Shown here: positions 25,501-52,696 of the stretch, piece by piece
How positions within the stretch are numbered: position 1 is the first letter of the stretch
How the letters are laid out: each line of letters opens with the position of its first letter
IMG/VR virus record: IMGVR_UViG_3300021185_002489
Coordinates: 1 to 61,839 of that record
Length of the DNA: 61,839 bases
Strand: one strand, 5' to 3'
Source of the DNA: a virus
Lineage: Duplodnaviria; Caudoviricetes
Program-made: the position numbers and the translations under genes
The notes under the pieces: generated by a model
The model's input: the letters and a program-made list of their open reading frames with translations, nothing else
The model's database searches: none
Told to the model about the DNA's origin: nothing

Positions 25501-28500
25501 TTCAAAAAGGGGGTGGTGTATCTGCAGATTGGAATACAAATCCTCCAACAAAACAAGAGTTTGTAGATTATTATGAAGCTACTAATGAAAAAGCTTCAAC
25601 AAGAGCTGATCGCAAAAAGTCTTTAAATAATGCTATAGCTAGACAATTAGCAAATGAGGCTAGAATTGAATTTGCCAAAAAAGATCCTGCAACTGCTCAA
25701 TTATTTAAAAAGAAGCATGGAGTTGTTTTAGCTAGTAAATCTTTAATTCCTTCAAATGAAAAATTACAAACATTATCTGGAATTCCAAATTTTAATGAAT
25801 TAGGCGGTATGCCTGCAAGAAATGTTTGGAAAGGTTTAAATGCTGAAACAAATATAGGATTTAATTTAAGTACAGAAAGCGGGAGAAAAAGAGCAATTTC
25901 TTCTATGAAAAAAGCTTTAATTAAAGGGCAAGTGCCTATTGATGCTTTTTTAACAGCAGAAATAATAATAAATAGTAGTCCTAGATTTTTTGTAGAACAG
26001 GAAAAAGCGTATACAAATGCTAAAGCTAAACTTGGAAAAAATAATAAACAAACAATAGCGGCAGATAAAGAGCGCATGCGTGTTAAAAATGAATTTGTAA
26101 AAAACATGAACACTATGCTTTCTGAAGTTAAAGATAGTGGAAAAGCTGTTTATTTAACAGGCCCAGCTAAAGGATGGACTAAAAATAAATATTCATTTAA
26201 TACTTTAGGAAAAAACTTAACACAAATTGCTGAATCTTTTAAAAATGGAAAAGTTGCTAAAAACAATTTAGCTAACCTATCTATGTTTGAGCAAACTATG
26301 CGCCCTCTTTATAACTTAATTTCTGATGCTAAAACTACTTCAGAAAAAACAGAAATGGTTAATTTAATTATGATGTTAACCAACACTAGCAATGGAGGCT
26401 CTAATTTATGGTTTAGACAAGGAGCAGAAGTTGTTGGATTTTCTAAATTTTTATTACCAGGAAAAGAGGGTAAAAGAGGTATTGAGTGGGAACATGCAAT
26501 GCAGGCTAATAATGCTCGTTTATTTTTACTTAATTCTGCTTTAAACAATGTGCCATGGACCACCGTTTATCCTGCTGTAAAAAGAAATTATAAAGTAATA
26601 GCATTAGATAAATCTTTAGATGATATTTTAAAATCAGCTAAAAGAGGCAATGCAATGGGAGAAGGCTGGAACGTTTATAAAAGTCATTGGACAGAAAGGT
26701 ATTTTCATCCAGATGTAGTTGTTTTTGGGGGCATTGACCCCTTTAGTATAATTGATATTAGCGGGCAAACAATGTCTGAAAAATATAATATAGATGCGGC
26801 TGGCCAATCATTAACTGAAATTAAATCATCAAAAACTTTAAATAAAGAGTTTAACGATATTATTGAAAGAGTTAAAGGTGTTGCTTCTGATGCTACATAT
26901 TCTGAAGCTAGAGCTATAAAACTTGGAAAGAAAAATAATCCTTTTAAGTTTTTTGTTCCTTATTCAGCTGAGGATTATATGGGATTGGTATATCCTACGC
27001 TTGGCAAAGGTGCTGAAGGTGATAAAAATCTTAAATGGTATAAAGATAACATTACTGATGTTTATGCAAGAGGGATTCGTGATTTTGAAATAGCTAAGCA
27101 GCAGTCTATGACACAATGGACTGAACTTAAAAAACAAATTAAAAATTCTCCTGCTAAATTAGATAAAGAAGCTGTAAGAGATTTTACTAATGAAGAAGCT
27201 ATAAGATTATACTTATGGGATCAGCAAGGTATGCTGCCTGATAATGTTGCTAAAAAAGATATTGAAGCAATAAATAAATATATTGATAGTAAGCCTGAGT
27301 TAAAAAGTTTTGCAGAACAAATACAAGGATTGACTTCAGACGGCTACCCTGCACCTACAGGTGATTGGTTAGCTGGCACAATAACTACTGATTTAGTTAA
27401 TTATACTAATACAGCTAGTAGAGAGCAGTACTTGAAGCAATGGCAAGATAACGTAGATGTTGTGTATAGCAAAGAGAATATGAATAAACTCCGCGCTATT
27501 TATGGTGAAGACTATACCGAAGCGTTAAGTGATATGCTTTATAGAATGAAGACTGGTCGCAATAGACCATCTGGTGCTAATAAGCTTACTAATCAGTTTA
27601 TGAACTGGGTTAATGATTCTGTAGGTACGATAATGTTCTTTAATACAAGATCAGCATTGTTGCAAACAATATCAGCTGTAAACTATTTAAACTTTACAGA
27701 TAACAATCCGTTAAGAGTTGCTGCTGCATTTGCAAATCAAAAACAATACTGGTCTGATTTTTCTGAAATATTTAATTCTGATTTCTTAAAACAAAGAAGA
27801 GGTGGGTTAAAAACTGATGTTAACGCAGATGAAATAGCACGAGCTGCTTCGACATCTGATAATAAAGTTAGAGCTGCGTTAGCCGCTATATTAAAGAAAG
27901 GATTTTTACCAACTCAACTTGCGGATAGTTTTGCAATATCAGTTGGGGGCGCTGCTTTTTACAGAAACAGAATTAATTCTTTAATGAAAGATGGTCTTAC
28001 TGAAGAGCAAGCTAAAGAGCAGGCGTTTTTAGATTTTAAAGAAACAACTGAAGAGTCTCAGCAATCATCAAGACCAGATAGAGTCTCCATGCAGCAAGCG
28101 AGCCCATTAGGACGCGTTGTATTAGCCTTTGCTAACACACCTATGCAATATACTCGTTTAACTAAAAAAGCTGCCTTAGATCTCTTTAATGGACGTGGCG
28201 ACTGGAAGACTAATCTTTCTAAACTTGCTTATTACGGAGCTGTGCAGAATATTATATTTACTGCTTTACAGTCTGCAATGTTTGCAATGTTATTTTCTGA
28301 CGAAGAAGACGACAAAGAAAAAGAAAAGATTGGTAGAATTGGTAACGGTATTGCTGATACTTTACTAAGAGGTTCTGGTGTATATGGAGCTGGCGTAGCA
28401 ATGATTAAAAACATTGTTATGGAAGCTATTAAACAATATAATAGCGGAAGACCTGATTACACAAAAGCTGCAGCTAAGATAACAAGTATATCACCTCCTG

Positions 28501-29258
28501 TAGATTCTAAAATAAGAAAGCTACAGTCTGTGGGTAGAACGTTTACTTATAAGCAAGAGATTGAAAAAATGAGAACAAAAGGTTTTGATATTGACAATCC
28601 AGCTTATATGGCTGTAGGGCAAACTGTTTCTGCATTAGCCAACATACCTTTAGATAGAGCAGTACGTAAAATGAACAACTTAAAAACTGCAGTTGATCAG
28701 GATACTGAATTGTGGCAATCTATTGGTTTAGCTTTAGGATATAGTGAATGGGATTTAGGGATGATACAAGCTCAACAAAAAAAGGATAAAGAGCAAAAGA
28801 AAGCTGATAAAGTTAAAAAAGCTTACATGAAAAAGTTTAGTCCTAAGCTTGATGCTAAAACAAAAAGAATTATATCTTTTAGTAAAATGTCTAAAGACGA
28901 AAAAAAAGAATATATTCAAAAAAGAGCAAAAGCAGGACAGCCTTTATTTAAAAAAGATTTTTCAAATAGTTTACCAAAAGGAGTATTAGGTAGAGCTAAT
29001 AAAGATGGCACTATTGAAGTTGCTAATGGACTATCACCTACAAAAAAGAAACAGGTTATAGCTCATGAAAAAAAGCATCAAGAAGACATGAAGTCTGGTA
29101 AATTAAACTATGATAAGAATTTTATTTATTGGAATAATGAAAAATATAAAAGAACTTCTAATAAAAAAATAAATTACAAAGGAAAATTATATATTGAAGG
29201 CTCGCCGGCTTTGCCTTGGGAAAAAGCTGCAAATAACGCTGAAAAACAAATTAATTAA
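22581..29258 (+). CDS. Giant multidomain internal virion (ejection) protein with two zincin motifs and a sigma70-like segment
   Basis: 2225 aa; A/G-rich hydrophobic N-terminal part; HELLH at aa 574; HEKKH at aa 2162; sigma region-2-like segment at about aa 770-841. Confidence 0.65.
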   Translation: MLTEEQKLELDNLVASMQTKGASNEEIQAAVDARKSQMLSSSDMEKPQPVAETTAPAAGQTPGTELQLESGSSELQSEEEEDEPNVLQSLIARTGRGVVTAAKGLSSFKDGLIFGAMNLYDPDKSTEEKKALYDAIERGSATDMLPSTDDFETAEDWLSKYVRRTDNESITDAITNGNYAEAAEMTVGGALESVPSVLAALTGYGGIALFGASVAGNKFDEELEKNPEEAIGTLALNALGSGATEAGFELVTRGILSKAGFINKEMGAKAAKEFLNQSAGSMAKKLGLGYLGEAGSEAATELTQTINDAYGFLGTGIGELEGRADETLAKTVGNNIKNIVDAGIVGGFMGGTISTVGALGNNTPARNRAEQILTPEVQKQQMETSAKNISEYVKDLEKTEDEYERSLLEKKIVEEENNIVKTKKKVSLGLSSLKGDNLSKYAKNQDEITKAKASIESDTDAEKAKSLARQRYDELVNENNEILESSIKQKFEDITESAEKQAGDLGVEFKRFKTSKEVEDYILSKDKRKTKKSKVLAESNDGFIIQNFDGTQEIIINEEVAMDPENQAVNVASHELLHGVLYNTLKGNPDTAENLGIELGKEIAKINVEEVADSNFRKRLELYADESIAVQGEEVLALFSDAVATGDIKYNENIFTKLGDGVRRVLETVGLKKKFNTGRDVYNFIKDYNADIAKGGLRQSIIQGAKEGFEGKLVKDAEKQAKSVIKESRSNLKGLLDKYGDKKTLIQQSLLKTPQGQETFDFVKSEFGQEVAPIVESVTKRLYDPIPQDAKQGVSREDYKNAMISDLATIVDREYDPAKQDLDKFVGIRAFQRSNRLAKQLGIESVAERGGAGITTDVTEAKAITAEEKAPDEVSTKKPIAEALKLPKEISEKTNRLAELAAIKADKSLEGKETSDVKKLSARNKAFNDIFSKQLFNDIKTELGKNTKNSNDFSKYLDKNYEGLLDAALDNIDFQKGGGVSADWNTNPPTKQEFVDYYEATNEKASTRADRKKSLNNAIARQLANEARIEFAKKDPATAQLFKKKHGVVLASKSLIPSNEKLQTLSGIPNFNELGGMPARNVWKGLNAETNIGFNLSTESGRKRAISSMKKALIKGQVPIDAFLTAEIIINSSPRFFVEQEKAYTNAKAKLGKNNKQTIAADKERMRVKNEFVKNMNTMLSEVKDSGKAVYLTGPAKGWTKNKYSFNTLGKNLTQIAESFKNGKVAKNNLANLSMFEQTMRPLYNLISDAKTTSEKTEMVNLIMMLTNTSNGGSNLWFRQGAEVVGFSKFLLPGKEGKRGIEWEHAMQANNARLFLLNSALNNVPWTTVYPAVKRNYKVIALDKSLDDILKSAKRGNAMGEGWNVYKSHWTERYFHPDVVVFGGIDPFSIIDISGQTMSEKYNIDAAGQSLTEIKSSKTLNKEFNDIIERVKGVASDATYSEARAIKLGKKNNPFKFFVPYSAEDYMGLVYPTLGKGAEGDKNLKWYKDNITDVYARGIRDFEIAKQQSMTQWTELKKQIKNSPAKLDKEAVRDFTNEEAIRLYLWDQQGMLPDNVAKKDIEAINKYIDSKPELKSFAEQIQGLTSDGYPAPTGDWLAGTITTDLVNYTNTASREQYLKQWQDNVDVVYSKENMNKLRAIYGEDYTEALSDMLYRMKTGRNRPSGANKLTNQFMNWVNDSVGTIMFFNTRSALLQTISAVNYLNFTDNNPLRVAAAFANQKQYWSDFSEIFNSDFLKQRRGGLKTDVNADEIARAASTSDNKVRAALAAILKKGFLPTQLADSFAISVGGAAFYRNRINSLMKDGLTEEQAKEQAFLDFKETTEESQQSSRPDRVSMQQASPLGRVVLAFANTPMQYTRLTKKAALDLFNGRGDWKTNLSKLAYYGAVQNIIFTALQSAMFAMLFSDEEDDKEKEKIGRIGNGIADTLLRGSGVYGAGVAMIKNIVMEAIKQYNSGRPDYTKAAAKITSISPPVDSKIRKLQSVGRTFTYKQEIEKMRTKGFDIDNPAYMAVGQTVSALANIPLDRAVRKMNNLKTAVDQDTELWQSIGLALGYSEWDLGMIQAQQKKDKEQKKADKVKKAYMKKFSPKLDAKTKRIISFSKMSKDEKKEYIQKRAKAGQPLFKKDFSNSLPKGVLGRANKDGTIEVANGLSPTKKKQVIAHEKKHQEDMKSGKLNYDKNFIYWNNEKYKRTSNKKINYKGKLYIEGSPALPWEKAANNAEKQIN

Positions 29259-44455: not shown

Positions 44456-44475
44456 TATATTTAATTTAATATTAG

Positions 44476-44548
44476 TTGCGGTGACAGGATTCGAACCTGT
44501 GACCTCGAGTTTATGAGACTCGCGAGCTGACCACTGCTCTACACCGCT
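44476..44548 (-). tRNA. tRNA with CAT anticodon, initiator-like
   Basis: Cloverleaf AGCGGTG...GAGC/GCTC...CGAGT-CTCATAA-ACTCG...ACAGG-TTCGAAT-CCTGT-CACCGCA-A; no encoded CCA. Confidence 0.9.
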
Positions 44549-44554
44549 AAAAGT

Positions 44555-44666
44555 TAGGGCCTCACCATTGCTTTTCGTTTACCCTTGCAAGAGGTACGCC
44601 GGTTTTTTTGGCCCTATTTGTGCTACGTGAGTCTTTAACCATTAAGGTGCCTCATTCATCTAACAC
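44555..44666 (-). ncRNA. Two structured hairpin elements between the tRNA-like genes
   Basis: TAGGGCC/GGCCCTA and GTGTTA/TAGCAC closing stems with internal stems; GC-rich relative to the flanks. Confidence 0.35.
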
Positions 44667-44673
44667 TATTTTG

Positions 44674-44749
44674 TGGACGTGGCAGGAGTCGAACCTACGT
44701 TTGCTGATAGTGTACTTTTGAACTTTGTCAGCACTTGCCCATCACGCCC
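44674..44749 (-). ncRNA. tRNA-like RNA resembling the tmRNA tRNA-like domain (G3.U70, A73)
   Basis: Acceptor stem GGGCGTG/CACGTCC-A; T arm GTAGG-TTCGACT-CCTGC; no D stem; TGCTGA/TCAGCA stem. Confidence 0.65.
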
Positions 44750-44751
44750 GT

Positions 44752-44943
44752 TTATTTGCGTCGCCAAGATCGGTGCACTGCTGCACTTGTTGCTTGGTCA
44801 ACGACTTGTATTTCTAGTACTTGTTTGCTACCAATGATCGGTACATAACTATATAGCTGTGTATCAGAGCATTGCACGCAATTTTTGTAGCCCATTTCAA
44901 TTCTAACAGGATGAACTTTGCTGCCACATTTACAATATTTCAT
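44752..44943 (-). CDS. DksA/TraR-type C4 zinc-finger protein
   Basis: CKCGSKVHPVRIEMGYKNCVQCS. Confidence 0.6.
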   Translation of the reverse strand: MKYCKCGSKVHPVRIEMGYKNCVQCSDTQLYSYVPIIGSKQVLEIQVVDQATSAAVHRSWRRK

Positions 44944-51118: not shown

Positions 51119-52696
51119 ATGGCACAATTTGGAGGACCAAAGCTTGTTAAGAAACTTCACTTTAATAATGAAGCAAAAGATAAGCTTTCAAACGGAATAA
51201 ATAAAATAGCAGATGCTGTTAGCTCTACACTAGGAGCAAGCGGTAGAACAGTAATTATCGAAGATGACTTTGGTAACCCATACGTAACTAAGGATGGGGT
51301 CACTGTTGCTAATTCAATATTGCTCAACGATCCAGTTGAGAACTTAGGCGTTTCAATGATGAAACAAGCCGCTCAAAAGACAGCGAGTATGGCGGGTGAT
51401 GGCACAACCACCTCCATAGTGTTAACACAAGCCATAATCGACTGTTATAATAAAAAAGAAGGAAATCAGTTTTCTTTTAGAGATGTTAGAAGTGGGATTA
51501 ATAAATTTAAATCTCACGTAATAGACTTCTTGTCTAAAAAAGCTGTTAAAGTTGATAATAAAGAATTATACAACGTTTCTACTATTTCTGCGAATAATGA
51601 TGCAGAGCTTGGGGGTATTATTGCACAAGCTTTTGAAAACTCCGGTGACACTGGAATTGTTGCTATGGAAACTTCTCCAAACAATCAAACGTATGTTGAC
51701 ACTGTAGAAGGTACAAAAGTTGGTAGCACTTGTAAGACACCTCATTTTTATACTAATAAAGAAAAAGAAATAGCTGAGCTTGACAAGCCGCTAGTTTTTA
51801 TTAGTGTATCTGAAATACCAAATGTAAGAAAAATTCAAGACATACTGGAGCATGCTATTAAGTCCAACCGTAGCATTCTCCTTATTGCTCCTTTAGAGTC
51901 GCAGCCGTTAACCGCGCTTGCAATGAATAAAGTAAAGGGTAATATTAAAGTCAACGTAATAGATCCACCCAGCTTTGGGCTTAAGCGAAAGGACATACTA
52001 GAAGATCTTGCGTTGCTTGTCGGGGCTAAAGTTTTTGACGAAAGCCTTGGGGATTCGATTGATGCGATCTCCCCTGACATGTTAGGATCGGCCGATAAGG
52101 CTCTCTCAGATAGTGAAGGTACAGTTTTAGTTATTTCTGAAAAATCAGAAGAAGCTTTAGAACGTATCGAATATTTAAAAACTGCTCTTGATGACGAAGA
52201 CAATAAGATATTGTCTAAGCATTTAAATGAAAGGTTAGCATTGTTATGTGGTGGTGTGTCCATTGTTTATGTAGGTGCTGATACTGAAGTTGAGCTTAAA
52301 GAAAAACAAGACAGAGTAGATGATGCAATCCATGCTGTTAAAGCAGCAAGGAAAGAAGGTATTTTACCAGGAGGTGGCTCTGCATTAGCATATGCAGCAC
52401 AAACTGATTGGAAAATGGAATTAACACAGGATGAACTTACCGGTGTTGAAATATTAAAAGAAGCTTTAGTTGCACCATATACAAAAATATTATCCAATGC
52501 TGGTTTACAGCCCGAAAACTTCAATCTAACAGAATGGGGTGAAGGTGTTAATGTAACCTGTGGATGCGCTAGAAATATGCGGGATGAAGGAATTATAGAT
52601 CCTTTCCTAGTTACAAAAACTGCTTTAAATAATGCTGTTTCTGTAGCTACTACTATTCTATCAACTGATTGTGTAATTAGTAATATAAGAGAATAA
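51119..52696 (+). CDS. groEL: Phage chaperonin GroEL
   Basis: TKDGVTVA, AGDGTTTS, ISANND, GILPGGG and GIIDP motifs; no GGM tail. Confidence 0.95.
   Translation: MAQFGGPKLVKKLHFNNEAKDKLSNGINKIADAVSSTLGASGRTVIIEDDFGNPYVTKDGVTVANSILLNDPVENLGVSMMKQAAQKTASMAGDGTTTSIVLTQAIIDCYNKKEGNQFSFRDVRSGINKFKSHVIDFLSKKAVKVDNKELYNVSTISANNDAELGGIIAQAFENSGDTGIVAMETSPNNQTYVDTVEGTKVGSTCKTPHFYTNKEKEIAELDKPLVFISVSEIPNVRKIQDILEHAIKSNRSILLIAPLESQPLTALAMNKVKGNIKVNVIDPPSFGLKRKDILEDLALLVGAKVFDESLGDSIDAISPDMLGSADKALSDSEGTVLVISEKSEEALERIEYLKTALDDEDNKILSKHLNERLALLCGGVSIVYVGADTEVELKEKQDRVDDAIHAVKAARKEGILPGGGSALAYAAQTDWKMELTQDELTGVEILKEALVAPYTKILSNAGLQPENFNLTEWGEGVNVTCGCARNMRDEGIIDPFLVTKTALNNAVSVATTILSTDCVISNIRE

What the first reader, a model, noticed from the sequence alone, without database searches (positions are those of the whole stretch)
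44674..44749. Miniature tmRNA-like RNA: alanine acceptor with no tag reading frame
Seen: acceptor stem GGGCGTG/CACGTCC with a G3.U70 wobble and A73 (AlaRS identity elements), a canonical T arm, a short GG-containing D region without a stem, a TGCTGA/TCAGCA stem closing a 20-nt region with no proper anticodon arm, and a 3-nt AAC linker. This is the layout of the tmRNA tRNA-like domain without the mRNA-like domain. Inference: a decoy for SmpB, AlaRS or tRNA-targeting defences, or a tag-less ribosome-rescue RNA. A degenerate tRNA is the alternative explanation.
Basis: partly seen in the sequence, partly recalled or inferred. Interest (0 to 1): 0.72.

Follow-up and report, generated by a model that had tools for sequence, protein, structure and literature searches.

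The report
Tag-less mini-tmRNA gene in phage
A marine phage carries a 76-base RNA gene that copies only the alanine-accepting, tRNA-like end of the bacterial ribosome-rescue RNA (tmRNA), and the same gene is conserved in dozens of related uncultured phages, so it probably lets them interfere with the host's ribosome-rescue system.

Summary
On the minus strand at 44674-44749 lies a 76-nt RNA gene. It has a 7-bp acceptor stem with G3.U70 and A73, a stem-less GG-containing D loop, a 6-bp helix closing a 20-nt loop, an AAC linker and a T arm. No CCA is encoded and there is no tag frame.

It is not a decayed tRNA. The same architecture occurs in 65 of 67 viral contigs found by pattern. It also occurs in 56 of 80 contigs sampled through a neighbouring gene, independently of the RNA's own sequence. 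All three helices covary, while G3.U70 (54 of 57) and A73 (56 of 57) are kept.

Rfam places it with tmRNA (27.9 bits, below the 47-bit cut-off), not with tRNA.

The phage is a marine podophage related to Flavobacterium and Cellulophaga phages. It encodes no SmpB and no integrase.

The architecture matches the "TLD-only" tmRNA of mycobacteriophage DS6A, which the tmRNA literature says inhibits tmRNA, perhaps by titrating SmpB. So the kind is known. The new part is a large conserved family in marine phages, plus an unannotated copy in Microbacterium phage Gack.

The most likely function is competition with host tmRNA for SmpB, AlaRS and EF-Tu. This is inferred, not shown.

The parts
44674..44749 (-). 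Whole RNA gene: 76 nt from G1 (44749) to discriminator A (44674). A tag-less tmRNA-like RNA (TLD-only).
   Evidence: Sequence; fold. RF00023 27.9 bits. Family model R1 68.5 bits, against 41-43 for true tRNA-Ala with the same acceptor and 27 or less for other tRNAs.
44743..44749 (-). Acceptor stem, 5' strand GGGCGUG (G3 at 44747).
   Evidence: Pairs with 44675-44681. In the neighbour-sampled set the stem is 100% paired and 4 of 7 pairs show changes on both sides. G.U at 3:70 in 47 of 50 distinct sequences.
44734..44742 (-). D-loop analogue AUGGGCAAG, with no stem. The family consensus is AAAUGGUUAG.
   Evidence: Resembles the GGUUUUGAC loop of 30 Bacteroidia tmRNAs.
44728..44733 (-). 5' strand UGCUGA of the connector helix (P2-like), which takes the place of an anticodon arm.
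   Evidence: Pairs with 44702-44707. All 6 pairs show changes on both sides across the family.
44708..44727 (-). 20-nt closing loop CAAAGUUCAAAAGUACACUA. It contains a small apical hairpin GUUC-AAAA-GUAC at 44712-44723. It has no anticodon loop and no stop codon.
   Evidence: This part is conserved in sequence within the closest subfamily (9 sequences) and is replaced by unrelated hairpins of 24-93 nt in other subfamilies.
44702..44707 (-). 3' strand UCAGCA of the connector helix.
44699..44701 (-). Linker AAC between the connector helix and the T arm; there is no variable loop.
   Evidence: AAC in most family members.
44682..44698 (-). T arm GUAGG-UUCGACU-CCUGC, with U53.G67 wobble.
   Evidence: 100% paired in the family; 4 of 5 pairs show changes on both sides. 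A variant seen in an RNA-library contig (44683 C>T) turns the U.G into U-A.
44675..44681 (-). Acceptor stem, 3' strand CACGUCC (U70 at 44677).
44671..44674 (-). Discriminator A73 (44674) and trailer CAA. CCA is not encoded.
   Evidence: A73 in 56 of 57. Only 4 of 30 Bacteroidia tmRNA genes encode CCA, so CCA would be added after transcription (inferred).
44752..44943 (-). 63-aa CxC...CxxC zinc-ribbon ORF that ends 2 nt before the RNA gene. It is a syntenic neighbour, and RNA-library contigs span both.
   Evidence: Found in 46 of 74 element-bearing loci. 412 viral contigs encode a relative. No Pfam or PHROG hit. Contigs of 4 RNA libraries bridge the ORF and the RNA gene. A functional link is not shown.
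44475..44548 (-). tRNA-Met(CAU), 125 nt downstream on the same strand.
   Evidence: ARAGORN; Rfam 66.5 bits. ARAGORN found a tRNA-Met in 16 of the 60 element loci it scanned, directly next to the element in several of them, e.g. L005, L009 and L020.

Best explanation
This is a real, expressed-type RNA gene for a tag-less mini-tmRNA. It is a tRNA-like domain (acceptor stem, stem-less D loop, T arm) closed by a short connector hairpin.

Inferred pathway: it is cut out of an early transcript like a tRNA, receives CCA from the host enzyme and is charged with alanine by host AlaRS through G3.U70/A73. Like the tRNA-like domain of tmRNA, it then binds host SmpB and EF-Tu.

It has no template and no stop codon, so it cannot complete trans-translation. 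The most likely effect is competition with host tmRNA for SmpB, and for stalled ribosomes. That would damp or block tagging and rescue during infection, as reported for the equivalent RNA of phage DS6A expressed in E. coli.

Shown here: the gene, its structure, its conservation, selection for the alanine identity elements, the absence of a tag frame, and its presence in RNA libraries. Inferred: processing, CCA addition, alanylation, SmpB binding and inhibition.

My confidence that it is a conserved tmRNA-TLD-like alanine acceptor is about 0.9. My confidence that its role is competitive interference with trans-translation is about 0.5.
For: - Structure and Rfam.
- Family by pattern: 68 matches in 67 viral contigs. 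All but L062 (ordinary tRNA-Ala) and L012 (has a D arm) share the layout. The 5' 17 nt and 3' 30 nt are near-invariant and the central hairpins are unrelated.
- Contrast with bacterial genomes: the same pattern gives 104 ordinary 72-73-nt tRNA-Ala among 115 matches. Only 7 matches have the mini form, all in MAGs; 6 lie on contigs of 0.6-12 kb and the contig size of the seventh (L126) was not recorded.
- Sampling independent of the RNA sequence: 56 of 80 loci picked through the upstream zinc-ribbon gene carry the element, at a median of 167 nt downstream.
- Covariation around a fixed wobble: acceptor pair 4:69 is C-G, G-C or A-U, and T-stem pairs covary, yet G3.U70 is kept in 54 of 57 and A73 in 56 of 57.
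- Statistics: 92.7% of cells paired against 72.7% in shuffles; covariation score 0.459 against 0.113 (0 of 500 shuffles reach it); slid controls 0.085 or less (likewise).
- Rfam assigns 12 of 15 tested family loci to tmRNA at 33-52.5 bits, and none to tRNA.
- DS6A has the same architecture (80 nt, G3.U70, stem-less D loop, connector hairpin, no CCA) and scores 40.5 bits with my family model.
[quoted passage not shown] DS6A is a CDS-less form shown to inhibit endogenous tmRNA in E. coli (PMC11915505).
- Review passages (PMC3985003): the deformed D arm is the SmpB contact, G3.U70 is the AlaRS determinant, and a 59-nt TLD fragment closed by a UUCG loop was co-crystallised with SmpB.
- The phage has no SmpB of its own, so it would depend on the host protein.
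- Contigs from 4 metatranscriptome libraries of 4 studies cover the element. Their variants keep the structure: A31G makes a GAAA loop, and G67A makes a U-A pair.
Against: - Alanylation, CCA addition, SmpB or EF-Tu binding and any effect on tagging were not and could not be tested here.
- RF00023 scores 27.9 bits, below the 47-bit cut-off.
- The window's own D loop (AUGGGCAAG) is one of the least consensus-like in the family.
- The family's D loop and the junction before the T arm (UUAGAC...GUAACG) differ from the Bacteroidia tmRNA pattern (UUUUGACAG...UUUGGACG), and the acceptor differs at pairs 4-6. Binding to the host SmpB is therefore plausible but not assured.
- 3 of 57 sampled elements lack G3.U70.
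- Of 24 sampled loci without a good hit, 17 have at least 600 nt of downstream sequence. Eight of the 24 carry only weak, reduced tRNA-like pieces without G.U. The function is therefore dispensable or changeable in some lineages.
- None of 6 cultured or named relatives has the element: MW202828, elemoF, phi19:3, phi38:1, Calle_1 and Gundel_1.
- RNA-library contigs cannot prove transcription. No DNA run or silent stretch was laid as a control.
- The DS6A inhibition experiment (Mao et al. 2009) is known to me only through two citing papers; the original is not held.
- The host is inferred from phage relatedness only.
Confidence: 0.55

Rival explanations
1. Tag-less ribosome rescue. The Ala-charged RNA with SmpB enters stalled ribosomes and accepts the nascent chain. 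The complex is then resolved by other means (drop-off with peptidyl-tRNA hydrolase, or an ArfB-type factor). Ribosomes would be freed for phage translation without marking proteins for proteolysis.
For: It has the same anatomy and the same selection for Ala identity as the best explanation. CDS-less tmRNAs persist in mitochondria together with SmpB and are thought to help with incomplete mRNAs (PMC11915505 passages). Related flavobacterial podophages phi38:1 and Calle_1 carry full-length 362-nt tmRNAs, so phages of this kind do invest in rescue.
Against: There is no stop codon or template, so no canonical release. No release-factor-like, ArfB-like or Pth-like gene was recognised among the conserved neighbours; 10 cluster representatives gave no significant Pfam or PHROG hits. 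The only experimental precedent cited is inhibition, not rescue.
Confidence: 0.2
2. A tRNA-like element with a role unrelated to the ribosome. It could be a processing or stability signal (an RNase P/Z site or 3' cap) for the early transcript, or an alanine donor for a tRNA-dependent transferase.
For: It sits 2 nt after an ORF, and contigs from RNA libraries span the ORF and the RNA. It lies next to tRNA genes or inside tRNA arrays. Some lineages keep only reduced acceptor-plus-T-arm pieces without G.U.
Against: A processing signal needs neither G3.U70 nor A73, yet these are kept while neighbouring pairs covary. The stem-less D loop resembles tmRNA, not tRNA. No transferase gene was recognised nearby.
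Confidence: 0.1
3. Counter-defence decoy. The RNA soaks up a host defence component that recognises tmRNA or tRNA-like RNA, for example systems with SmpB-like domains, rather than acting on trans-translation itself.
For: Type II and III-A CoCoNuT restriction systems carry SmpB-like OB folds predicted to bind tmRNA (PMC11090510 passages). The highly variable central hairpin beside an invariant TLD would fit an arms race.
Against: No defence system or target was identified here. No anticodon loop exists for anticodon nucleases to cut. This is pure inference.
Confidence: 0.08
4. Degenerate tRNA-Ala pseudogene, or a phage attachment site copied from a host tRNA or tmRNA gene.
For: The acceptor GGGCGUG/CACGUCC is also used by ordinary tRNA-Ala genes of Acidobacteriota and Bacillota.
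Against: The non-cloverleaf layout itself is conserved, with compensatory changes, in more than 100 contigs. Both halves of the acceptor are kept, whereas an attP core needs only the 3' part. No integrase or resolvase is found in the 94%-complete genome. The TLD does not match the Bacteroidia tmRNA sequence.
Confidence: 0.03

Closest known systems
TLD-only (CDS-less) tmRNA of Mycobacterium phage DS6A (tmRNA Website; Hudson et al. 2014; Mao et al. 2009 as cited)
   Same: Phage-encoded and about 80 nt long. It has an acceptor with G3.U70 and A73, a stem-less GG-containing D loop, a connector helix capped by a short hairpin, a T arm, no encoded CCA and no tag frame. RF00023 scores it below the cut-off (43.2 bits).
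   Different: The host phylum differs (Actinomycetota, against a probable Bacteroidota host here). The acceptor sequence differs (GGGGCCG), as do GC content and genomic context. DS6A is a single reported case, while here there is a family of dozens to hundreds of contigs with measurable covariation. The DS6A element is not annotated in its GenBank record.
Standard tmRNA (ssrA, Rfam RF00023), including the full-length 362-nt tmRNAs of Cellulophaga phages phi38:1 and Calle_1
   Same: The tRNA-like domain has the G3.U70 acceptor, A73, a T loop of the GGUUCGAnUCC type, a D loop without a stem and a helix leaving where the anticodon arm would be. CCA is often not encoded in Bacteroidia.
   Different: About 290 nt are missing. 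There is no resume codon, no tag ORF, no stop codon and no pseudoknots. The score is below Rfam's gathering threshold. The TLD sequence is not a copy of the Bacteroidia or phi38:1 TLD.
CDS-less organellar tmRNAs (jakobid and other mitochondria, Rfam RF02544; two ~65-bp Mallomonadaceae plastid genes)
   Same: They are reduced to little more than the tRNA-like domain, with no tag reading frame (PMC11915505 passages).
   Different: They are organellar, mostly circularly permuted two-piece genes that act with a nucleus-encoded SmpB as the cell's own system. Here a virus adds the RNA on top of a host that has a normal tmRNA. No sequence relationship was tested beyond the Rfam scan.
Laboratory TLD fragments used to study SmpB (e.g. 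5' 25 nt + 3' 34 nt joined by a UUCG loop, co-crystal 2CZJ, as described in PMC3985003)
   Same: The design is the same: acceptor, D loop, short connector helix closed by a loop, and T arm.
   Different: These are man-made and derived from Thermus tmRNA. The natural RNA here has a longer, lineage-specific cap on the connector helix.
tRNA-Ala
   Same: It shares the acceptor stem with G3.U70 and A73 and the T arm. An identical acceptor sequence occurs in real tRNA-Ala genes.
   Different: There is no D stem, no anticodon arm, no anticodon and no variable loop. ARAGORN does not call it. My family model scores true tRNA-Ala 25 bits lower.

Membership tests
tmRNA (ssrA, RF00023) | tRNA-like domain: 7-bp acceptor with G3.U70, discriminator A73 and a T arm | tested here: met
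   G3.U70 in 54 of 57 relatives and A73 in 56 of 57.
tmRNA (ssrA, RF00023) | D arm replaced by a stem-less loop (the SmpB contact), and a connector helix (P2) in place of the anticodon arm | tested here: met
   All 6 connector-helix pairs covary.
tmRNA (ssrA, RF00023) | mRNA-like domain with resume codon, tag ORF and stop codon | tested here: not met
   Only 32 nt lie between the D loop and the linker. The stops are only inside the helix and the T stem, and the latter is lost in relatives.
tmRNA (ssrA, RF00023) | Pseudoknots PK1-PK4 | tested here: not met
   326 model positions are replaced by 39 nt. The fold is a simple hairpin.
tmRNA (ssrA, RF00023) | Score at or above Rfam's gathering threshold (47 bits) | tested here: not met
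   27.9 bits. Relatives score 33-52.5 bits, and 1 of 12 is above 47.
tmRNA (ssrA, RF00023) | Charged with alanine, binds SmpB and EF-Tu, and enters stalled ribosomes | not testable with these tools
   Needs biochemistry. The complex predictor offered here takes proteins only.
TLD-only / CDS-less phage tmRNA (DS6A type) | [quoted passage not shown] | tested here: met
   Side-by-side anatomy. Model R1 built from this family finds DS6A at 40.5 bits. RF00023 finds both.
TLD-only / CDS-less phage tmRNA (DS6A type) | Inhibits endogenous tmRNA when expressed | not testable with these tools
   Reported for DS6A by citation only.
tRNA (RF00005), tRNA-Ala | Cloverleaf with D stem, anticodon arm and NGC anticodon | tested here: not met
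   ARAGORN makes no call. At gathering thresholds Rfam's tRNA model finds only the neighbouring tRNA-Met. tmRNA outranks tRNA within the clan.
Phage attP copy of a host tRNA/tmRNA 3' end | An integrase in the phage, and identity to the host gene's 3' part | tested here: not met
   No PF00589 or PF00239 match. The TLD differs from 30 Bacteroidia tmRNAs.

The most novel reading that the evidence does not exclude
The invariant alanine-accepting TLD may be a delivery handle, and the lineage-specific central hairpin (24-93 nt, unrelated between subfamilies but sequence-conserved within them) may be the working part. In that case these RNAs would form a modular phage system. It would use SmpB/EF-Tu mimicry to carry a variable RNA module to stalled ribosomes, or it would serve as a decoy for defence proteins with SmpB-like domains. 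Simple SmpB titration would then not be the whole story.
Probability: 0.12. Interest if true: 0.8.

Novelty: new member of a known kind. Interest (0 to 1): 0.5.

Why it matters
The tag-less phage tmRNA has so far been a one-line curiosity from a single mycobacteriophage. This window shows the same design is a conserved gene under purifying selection in a large group of marine phages that probably infect Flavobacteriia. It also occurs, unannotated, in a cultured Microbacterium phage.

This suggests that interfering with, or re-routing, the host's trans-translation system is a recurrent phage strategy. It provides many natural sequence variants for testing what a bare TLD does to SmpB and stalled ribosomes.

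There is also an annotation gap. ARAGORN and Rfam at default thresholds miss these genes.

Tried and rejected
- A hidden tag frame: rejected.
- A structured RNA, or a separate mRNA-like piece, in the 125-nt spacer to tRNA-Met: the fold is no better than shuffles (z = 0.09).
- Sigma-70 promoter and terminator scan: counts are near the shuffled expectation and not informative for a Bacteroidota-type host.
- BLAST of the window's element and of a consensus-like member against 50,697 GenBank phage records: only T-arm-level hits to tRNAs, apart from Microbacterium phages Gack and Franklin22.
- Six named relatives searched with the family model: no member found.
- A phage SmpB partner: none.
- Integrase or resolvase, for the attP idea: none.
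- Function of the conserved neighbours:
  - no significant Pfam or PHROG hits;
  - the zinc-ribbon ORF folds confidently (pLDDT 83.8) but has no PDB fold match at E <= 0.001;
  - I therefore do not claim it is a partner of the RNA.
- Coverage gap in the RNA-library contigs: they leave 44457-44646 (tRNA-Met and spacer) uncovered in all 4 runs, and several stop near the RNA's 3' end. Without a DNA run laid beside them I draw no conclusion about transcript ends.
- Original DS6A paper (Mao et al. 2009): not held.
- Supplements were not consulted. The tmRNA database files of PMC11915505 and Table S1 of PMC9004378 may list further phage TLD-only sequences. My statement that the marine family is undescribed therefore rests only on full-text searches.

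Full report
**What is there.** The window is a whole IMG/VR virus record of 61,839 bases, estimated 94% complete. The finding lies on the minus strand. Read 5' to 3' from 44749 to 44674, it is:
- GGGCGUG (acceptor 5' strand)
- AUGGGCAAG (D-loop analogue, no stem)
- UGCUGA (helix)
- CAAAGUUCAAAAGUACACUA (20-nt loop)
- UCAGCA (helix)
- AAC (linker)
- GUAGG-UUCGACU-CCUGC (T arm)
- CACGUCC (acceptor 3' strand)
- A (discriminator), followed by CAA

The free-energy fold returns exactly this three-helix structure (-23.2 kcal/mol, z = -2.05). ARAGORN finds only the neighbouring tRNA-Met at 44475-44548. Rfam at gathering thresholds also finds only that tRNA. In E-value mode the best Rfam match to the element is tmRNA RF00023. 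It aligns end to end with 326 model positions replaced by 39 nt and scores 27.9 bits against a cut-off of 47. Lower-scoring matches from the same clan were suppressed. From the helix onward, the only stop codons are a UGA inside the helix and a UAG inside the T stem. The nearest relatives have GGAGG there and lose that UAG. There is no conserved tag frame.

**It is a family, not an accident.**
- A pattern made of the acceptor and T-arm halves found 68 matches in 67 viral contigs.
  - One match (L062) is an ordinary 72-nt tRNA-Ala, and one (L012) has a D arm.
  - The rest share a near-invariant 5' end (consensus GGGCGUGAAAUGGUUAG) and 3' end (AACGCAGGUUCGAUUCCUGCCACGUCCA). Central hairpins of very different sequence and length lie between them.
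  - ARAGORN, run on 60 of the 67 loci, called the element only in L012 (as tRNA-Arg) and L041 (as 'tRNA-???').
- The same pattern in 185,579 species' genomes gave 115 matches.
  - 104 are ordinary 72-73-nt tRNA-Ala genes of Acidobacteriota, Bacillota and others.
  - Only 7 have the mini form, all in MAGs; 6 lie on contigs of 0.6-12 kb.
  - The mini form is therefore essentially viral.
- A second pattern left the acceptor free and found 27 contigs. Of these, 22 have the GGGCGUG acceptor. One (L183) has GGGUGCG/CGCAUCC, keeping G3.U70 while pairs 4:69 and 6:67 change on both sides.

**Sampling that does not depend on the RNA's sequence.** In 46 of 74 element-bearing loci, a 62-aa CxC...CxxC zinc-ribbon ORF lies just upstream on the same strand. 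In the window this ORF is 44752-44943. I searched viral contigs with an alignment of that protein. It found 412 contigs, of which the best 80 were kept. I then scanned those 80 with a covariance model (R1) built from the first alignment.
- 56 of 80 loci have a hit of 40.8 bits or more on the same strand, at a median of 167 nt after the ORF. 52 of the 56 lie within 600 nt.
- Among the 57 matches the acceptors are GGGCGUG/CACGUCC (39), GGGGGUG/CACCUCC (8), GGGAGUG/CACUUCC (6) and four singletons.
- T stems include GCAGG/CCUGC, GGAGG/CCUCC, GGCGG/CCGCC, GACAG/CUGUC and others.
- G3.U70 is present in 54 of 57 and A73 in 56 of 57.
- Pair counting gives 92.7% of cells paired against 72.7% in shuffles. 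The covariation score is 0.459 against 0.113, and 0 of 500 shuffles reach it. Slid-partner controls give 0.085 or less.
- The acceptor and T arm are 100% paired, with 4 of 7 and 4 of 5 pairs changed on both sides. All 6 connector-helix pairs change on both sides. That alignment was fitted to the model, but the MAFFT alignment gives the same picture.
- A wobble pair kept while its neighbours swap Watson-Crick partners is the signature of selection for the alanine identity element. That last statement is established knowledge of AlaRS recognition, restated in PMC3985003.

**Results that cut the other way.**
- Three of 57 elements lack G.U.
- Of the 24 loci without a good hit, 17 have at least 600 nt of downstream sequence.
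- Eight of the 24 carry only weak (19-26 bit) reduced pieces. One example is a 47-nt acceptor-plus-T-arm unit with AGUGGUG/CACCACU and no G.U.
- None of six named relatives has a member. The best hit, 26.8 bits, is an annotated tRNA-Asp.
- The gene is therefore common in this phage group but not universal.

**Who carries it.** The large terminase matches 87 GenBank phage records: Flavobacterium (68), Cellulophaga (15), Tenacibaculum (2), Maribacter (1) and one uncultured podovirus at 63% identity. The genome is about 33% GC. It encodes GroEL, ribonucleotide reductase, a primase-helicase and a ligase. It lacks SmpB, integrase and resolvase. Twenty public runs from seawater or marine samples hold the region. 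The host is thus probably a marine member of the Flavobacteriia, which is an inference from relatedness.

Thirty Bacteroidia tmRNA genes show the TLD pattern GGGG(C/U)(C/U)G-AC.GGUUUUGACAG...UUUGGACG-T arm-C(G/A)GCUCC-A. Only 4 of the 30 encode CCA. The phage RNA shares the stem-less GGUU-containing loop and the missing CCA. It has its own acceptor sequence and its own junction nucleotides, so it is not a recent copy of a host TLD. It is also unlike the host-like TLD of the full-length 362-nt tmRNAs carried by the related Cellulophaga phages phi38:1 and Calle_1.

**Expression.** Six metatranscriptome runs hold 39-64% of the sampled words of the 7-kb region. Contigs of four of them, from four studies, cover the element: 44684-44829, 44647-44874, 44652-44922 and 44680-44830. 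They bridge it to the upstream ORF. Their differences from the window keep the structure: A31G gives a GAAA tetraloop as in relatives, C13U gives the relatives' D loop, and G67A turns U.G into U-A. These are assembled contigs from RNA libraries. They show presence, not transcript ends or levels, and no DNA control was laid.

**What is already known.**
- The tmRNA literature lists 'Mycobacterium phage DS6A (TLD only)'. It says the sequence is little more than the TLD, and that a similar molecule, chargeable or not, strongly inhibits tmRNA, perhaps by titrating SmpB (PMC4131195, passages).
- The 2025 database paper groups DS6A with CDS-less mitochondrial and plastid tmRNAs. It says DS6A inhibits endogenous tmRNA when expressed in E. 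coli (PMC11915505, passages).
- I located the DS6A element at 28478-28560 of JN698994, in an unannotated gap between gp33 and gp34. It scores 43.2 bits with RF00023 and 40.5 bits with R1, and it has the same anatomy as the window's RNA.
- BLAST with a consensus-like family member also led to an unannotated 89-nt element in Microbacterium phage Gack (PP978884, 39854-39942). It lies between tRNA-Asn and tRNA-Gln and has acceptor GGGCCUG/CAGGUCC. Its T arm is almost identical to the marine consensus, and R1 scores it at 55.8 bits.
- Full-text searches found no description of such a family in flavobacterial or marine phages. Supplements were not available to me, and the original Mao et al. 2009 paper is not held.

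**How it most likely works.**
- Shown: a conserved gene with tmRNA-TLD anatomy, selection on the AlaRS identity elements, no template, no phage SmpB, and presence in RNA libraries.
- From established knowledge (PMC3985003): SmpB binds the deformed D-arm region of the TLD. AlaRS reads G3.U70 in the acceptor without needing an anticodon. A 59-nt TLD closed by a tetraloop is enough to bind SmpB in a crystal.
- Inferred: the RNA is cut out by tRNA-processing enzymes, gets CCA, is charged with alanine, and competes with host tmRNA for SmpB, EF-Tu and stalled ribosomes. Without a template it cannot finish the reaction. The net effect would be to damp tagging and rescue during infection. I put this at about 0.5.
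- Rivals: productive tag-less rescue (0.2); a non-ribosomal tRNA-like role (0.1); a counter-defence decoy (0.08); and a pseudogene or attP (0.03).

**Verdict.** The kind of RNA is already known from one phage, so this is a new member of a known kind. It reveals a large conserved marine family and an annotation blind spot. Interest is moderate (0.5).

Noticed in passing
PP978884.1 39854-39942 (L249:539-627): Microbacterium phage Gack has an unannotated 89-nt TLD-only element (GGGCCUG/CAGGUCC, G3.U70, A73) between tRNA-Asn and tRNA-Gln. R1 scores it at 55.8 bits. Franklin22 gave a similar BLAST hit that I did not inspect.
   Followed up: partly
JN698994.1 28478-28560 (L247:1501-1583): The published DS6A TLD-only tmRNA is not annotated in the GenBank record. 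It lies in the gap between gp33 and gp34.
   Followed up: yes
NC_062747.1 73061-73129 (L238:1501-1569): Tenacibaculum phage Gundel_1 has an unannotated 69-nt D-armless tRNA-like element just upstream of its tRNA array. It has acceptor GGGAGUA/UACUCCC, a small central hairpin and a T arm, but G3-C70, so no alanine identity.
   Followed up: no
MW202828.1 about 524-700 (L229): The closest named relative has two unannotated, oddly built tRNA-like sequences in an intergenic gap. The best R1 score is 18.2 bits, and neither has G3.U70.
   Followed up: no
L261:3281-3327, L263:3293-3339, L265:3290-3336, L299:3284-3330: A 47-nt unit made of a 7-bp acceptor (AGUGGUG/CACCACU), a 15-nt connector and a T arm sits where other phages of the group have the mini-tmRNA. 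It is either a further reduced derivative or a remnant.
   Followed up: partly
window 44752-44943 (-), and 412 viral contigs: A conserved 62-63-aa CxC...CxxC zinc-ribbon protein lies directly upstream of the RNA gene in most carriers. It has no Pfam or PHROG hit. The AF2 model has pLDDT 83.8 and no PDB fold match.
   Followed up: partly
L004, L028, L041, L042, L046 (central part of the element): One subfamily's central domain contains a direct repeat of about 10 nt (GACAGUAUCU) flanking a small hairpin, which is unlike a plain stem. Another motif, ACACUA, recurs on the 3' side of the central domain in several subfamilies.
   Followed up: no
L027:341-434 and 825-914; L302:2982-3050 and 4644-4737: Two contigs carry two copies of the element. 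In L027 they flank a tRNA-Thr. The second L302 copy has G3-C70 and U73.
   Followed up: no
L030:2344-3513: In one contig the element sits inside an array of 11 tRNA genes, between tRNA-Ser and tRNA-Ala.
   Followed up: no
L059:2399-2463: A type II hammerhead ribozyme (RF02276, 50.1 bits, cut-off 37) lies in a high-GC viral contig that also carries a mini-tmRNA.
   Followed up: no
window 44475-44548 (-): The phage tRNA-Met(CAU) has a non-standard 1:72 pair (A opposite A) in the Rfam alignment. Whether it is an initiator, an elongator or a tRNA-Ile2 type was not examined.
   Followed up: no
NC_021796.1 26803-27164 (-), NC_062744.1 42950-43311 (+): Cellulophaga phages phi38:1 and Calle_1, distant relatives by terminase, carry full-length 362-nt tmRNA genes (87.6 and 86.6 bits).
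   Followed up: partly
window 51119-52696 (+): The phage encodes a GroEL-type chaperonin. The closest named relative, MW202828, is annotated with both GroEL and a 10-kDa co-chaperonin.
   Followed up: no
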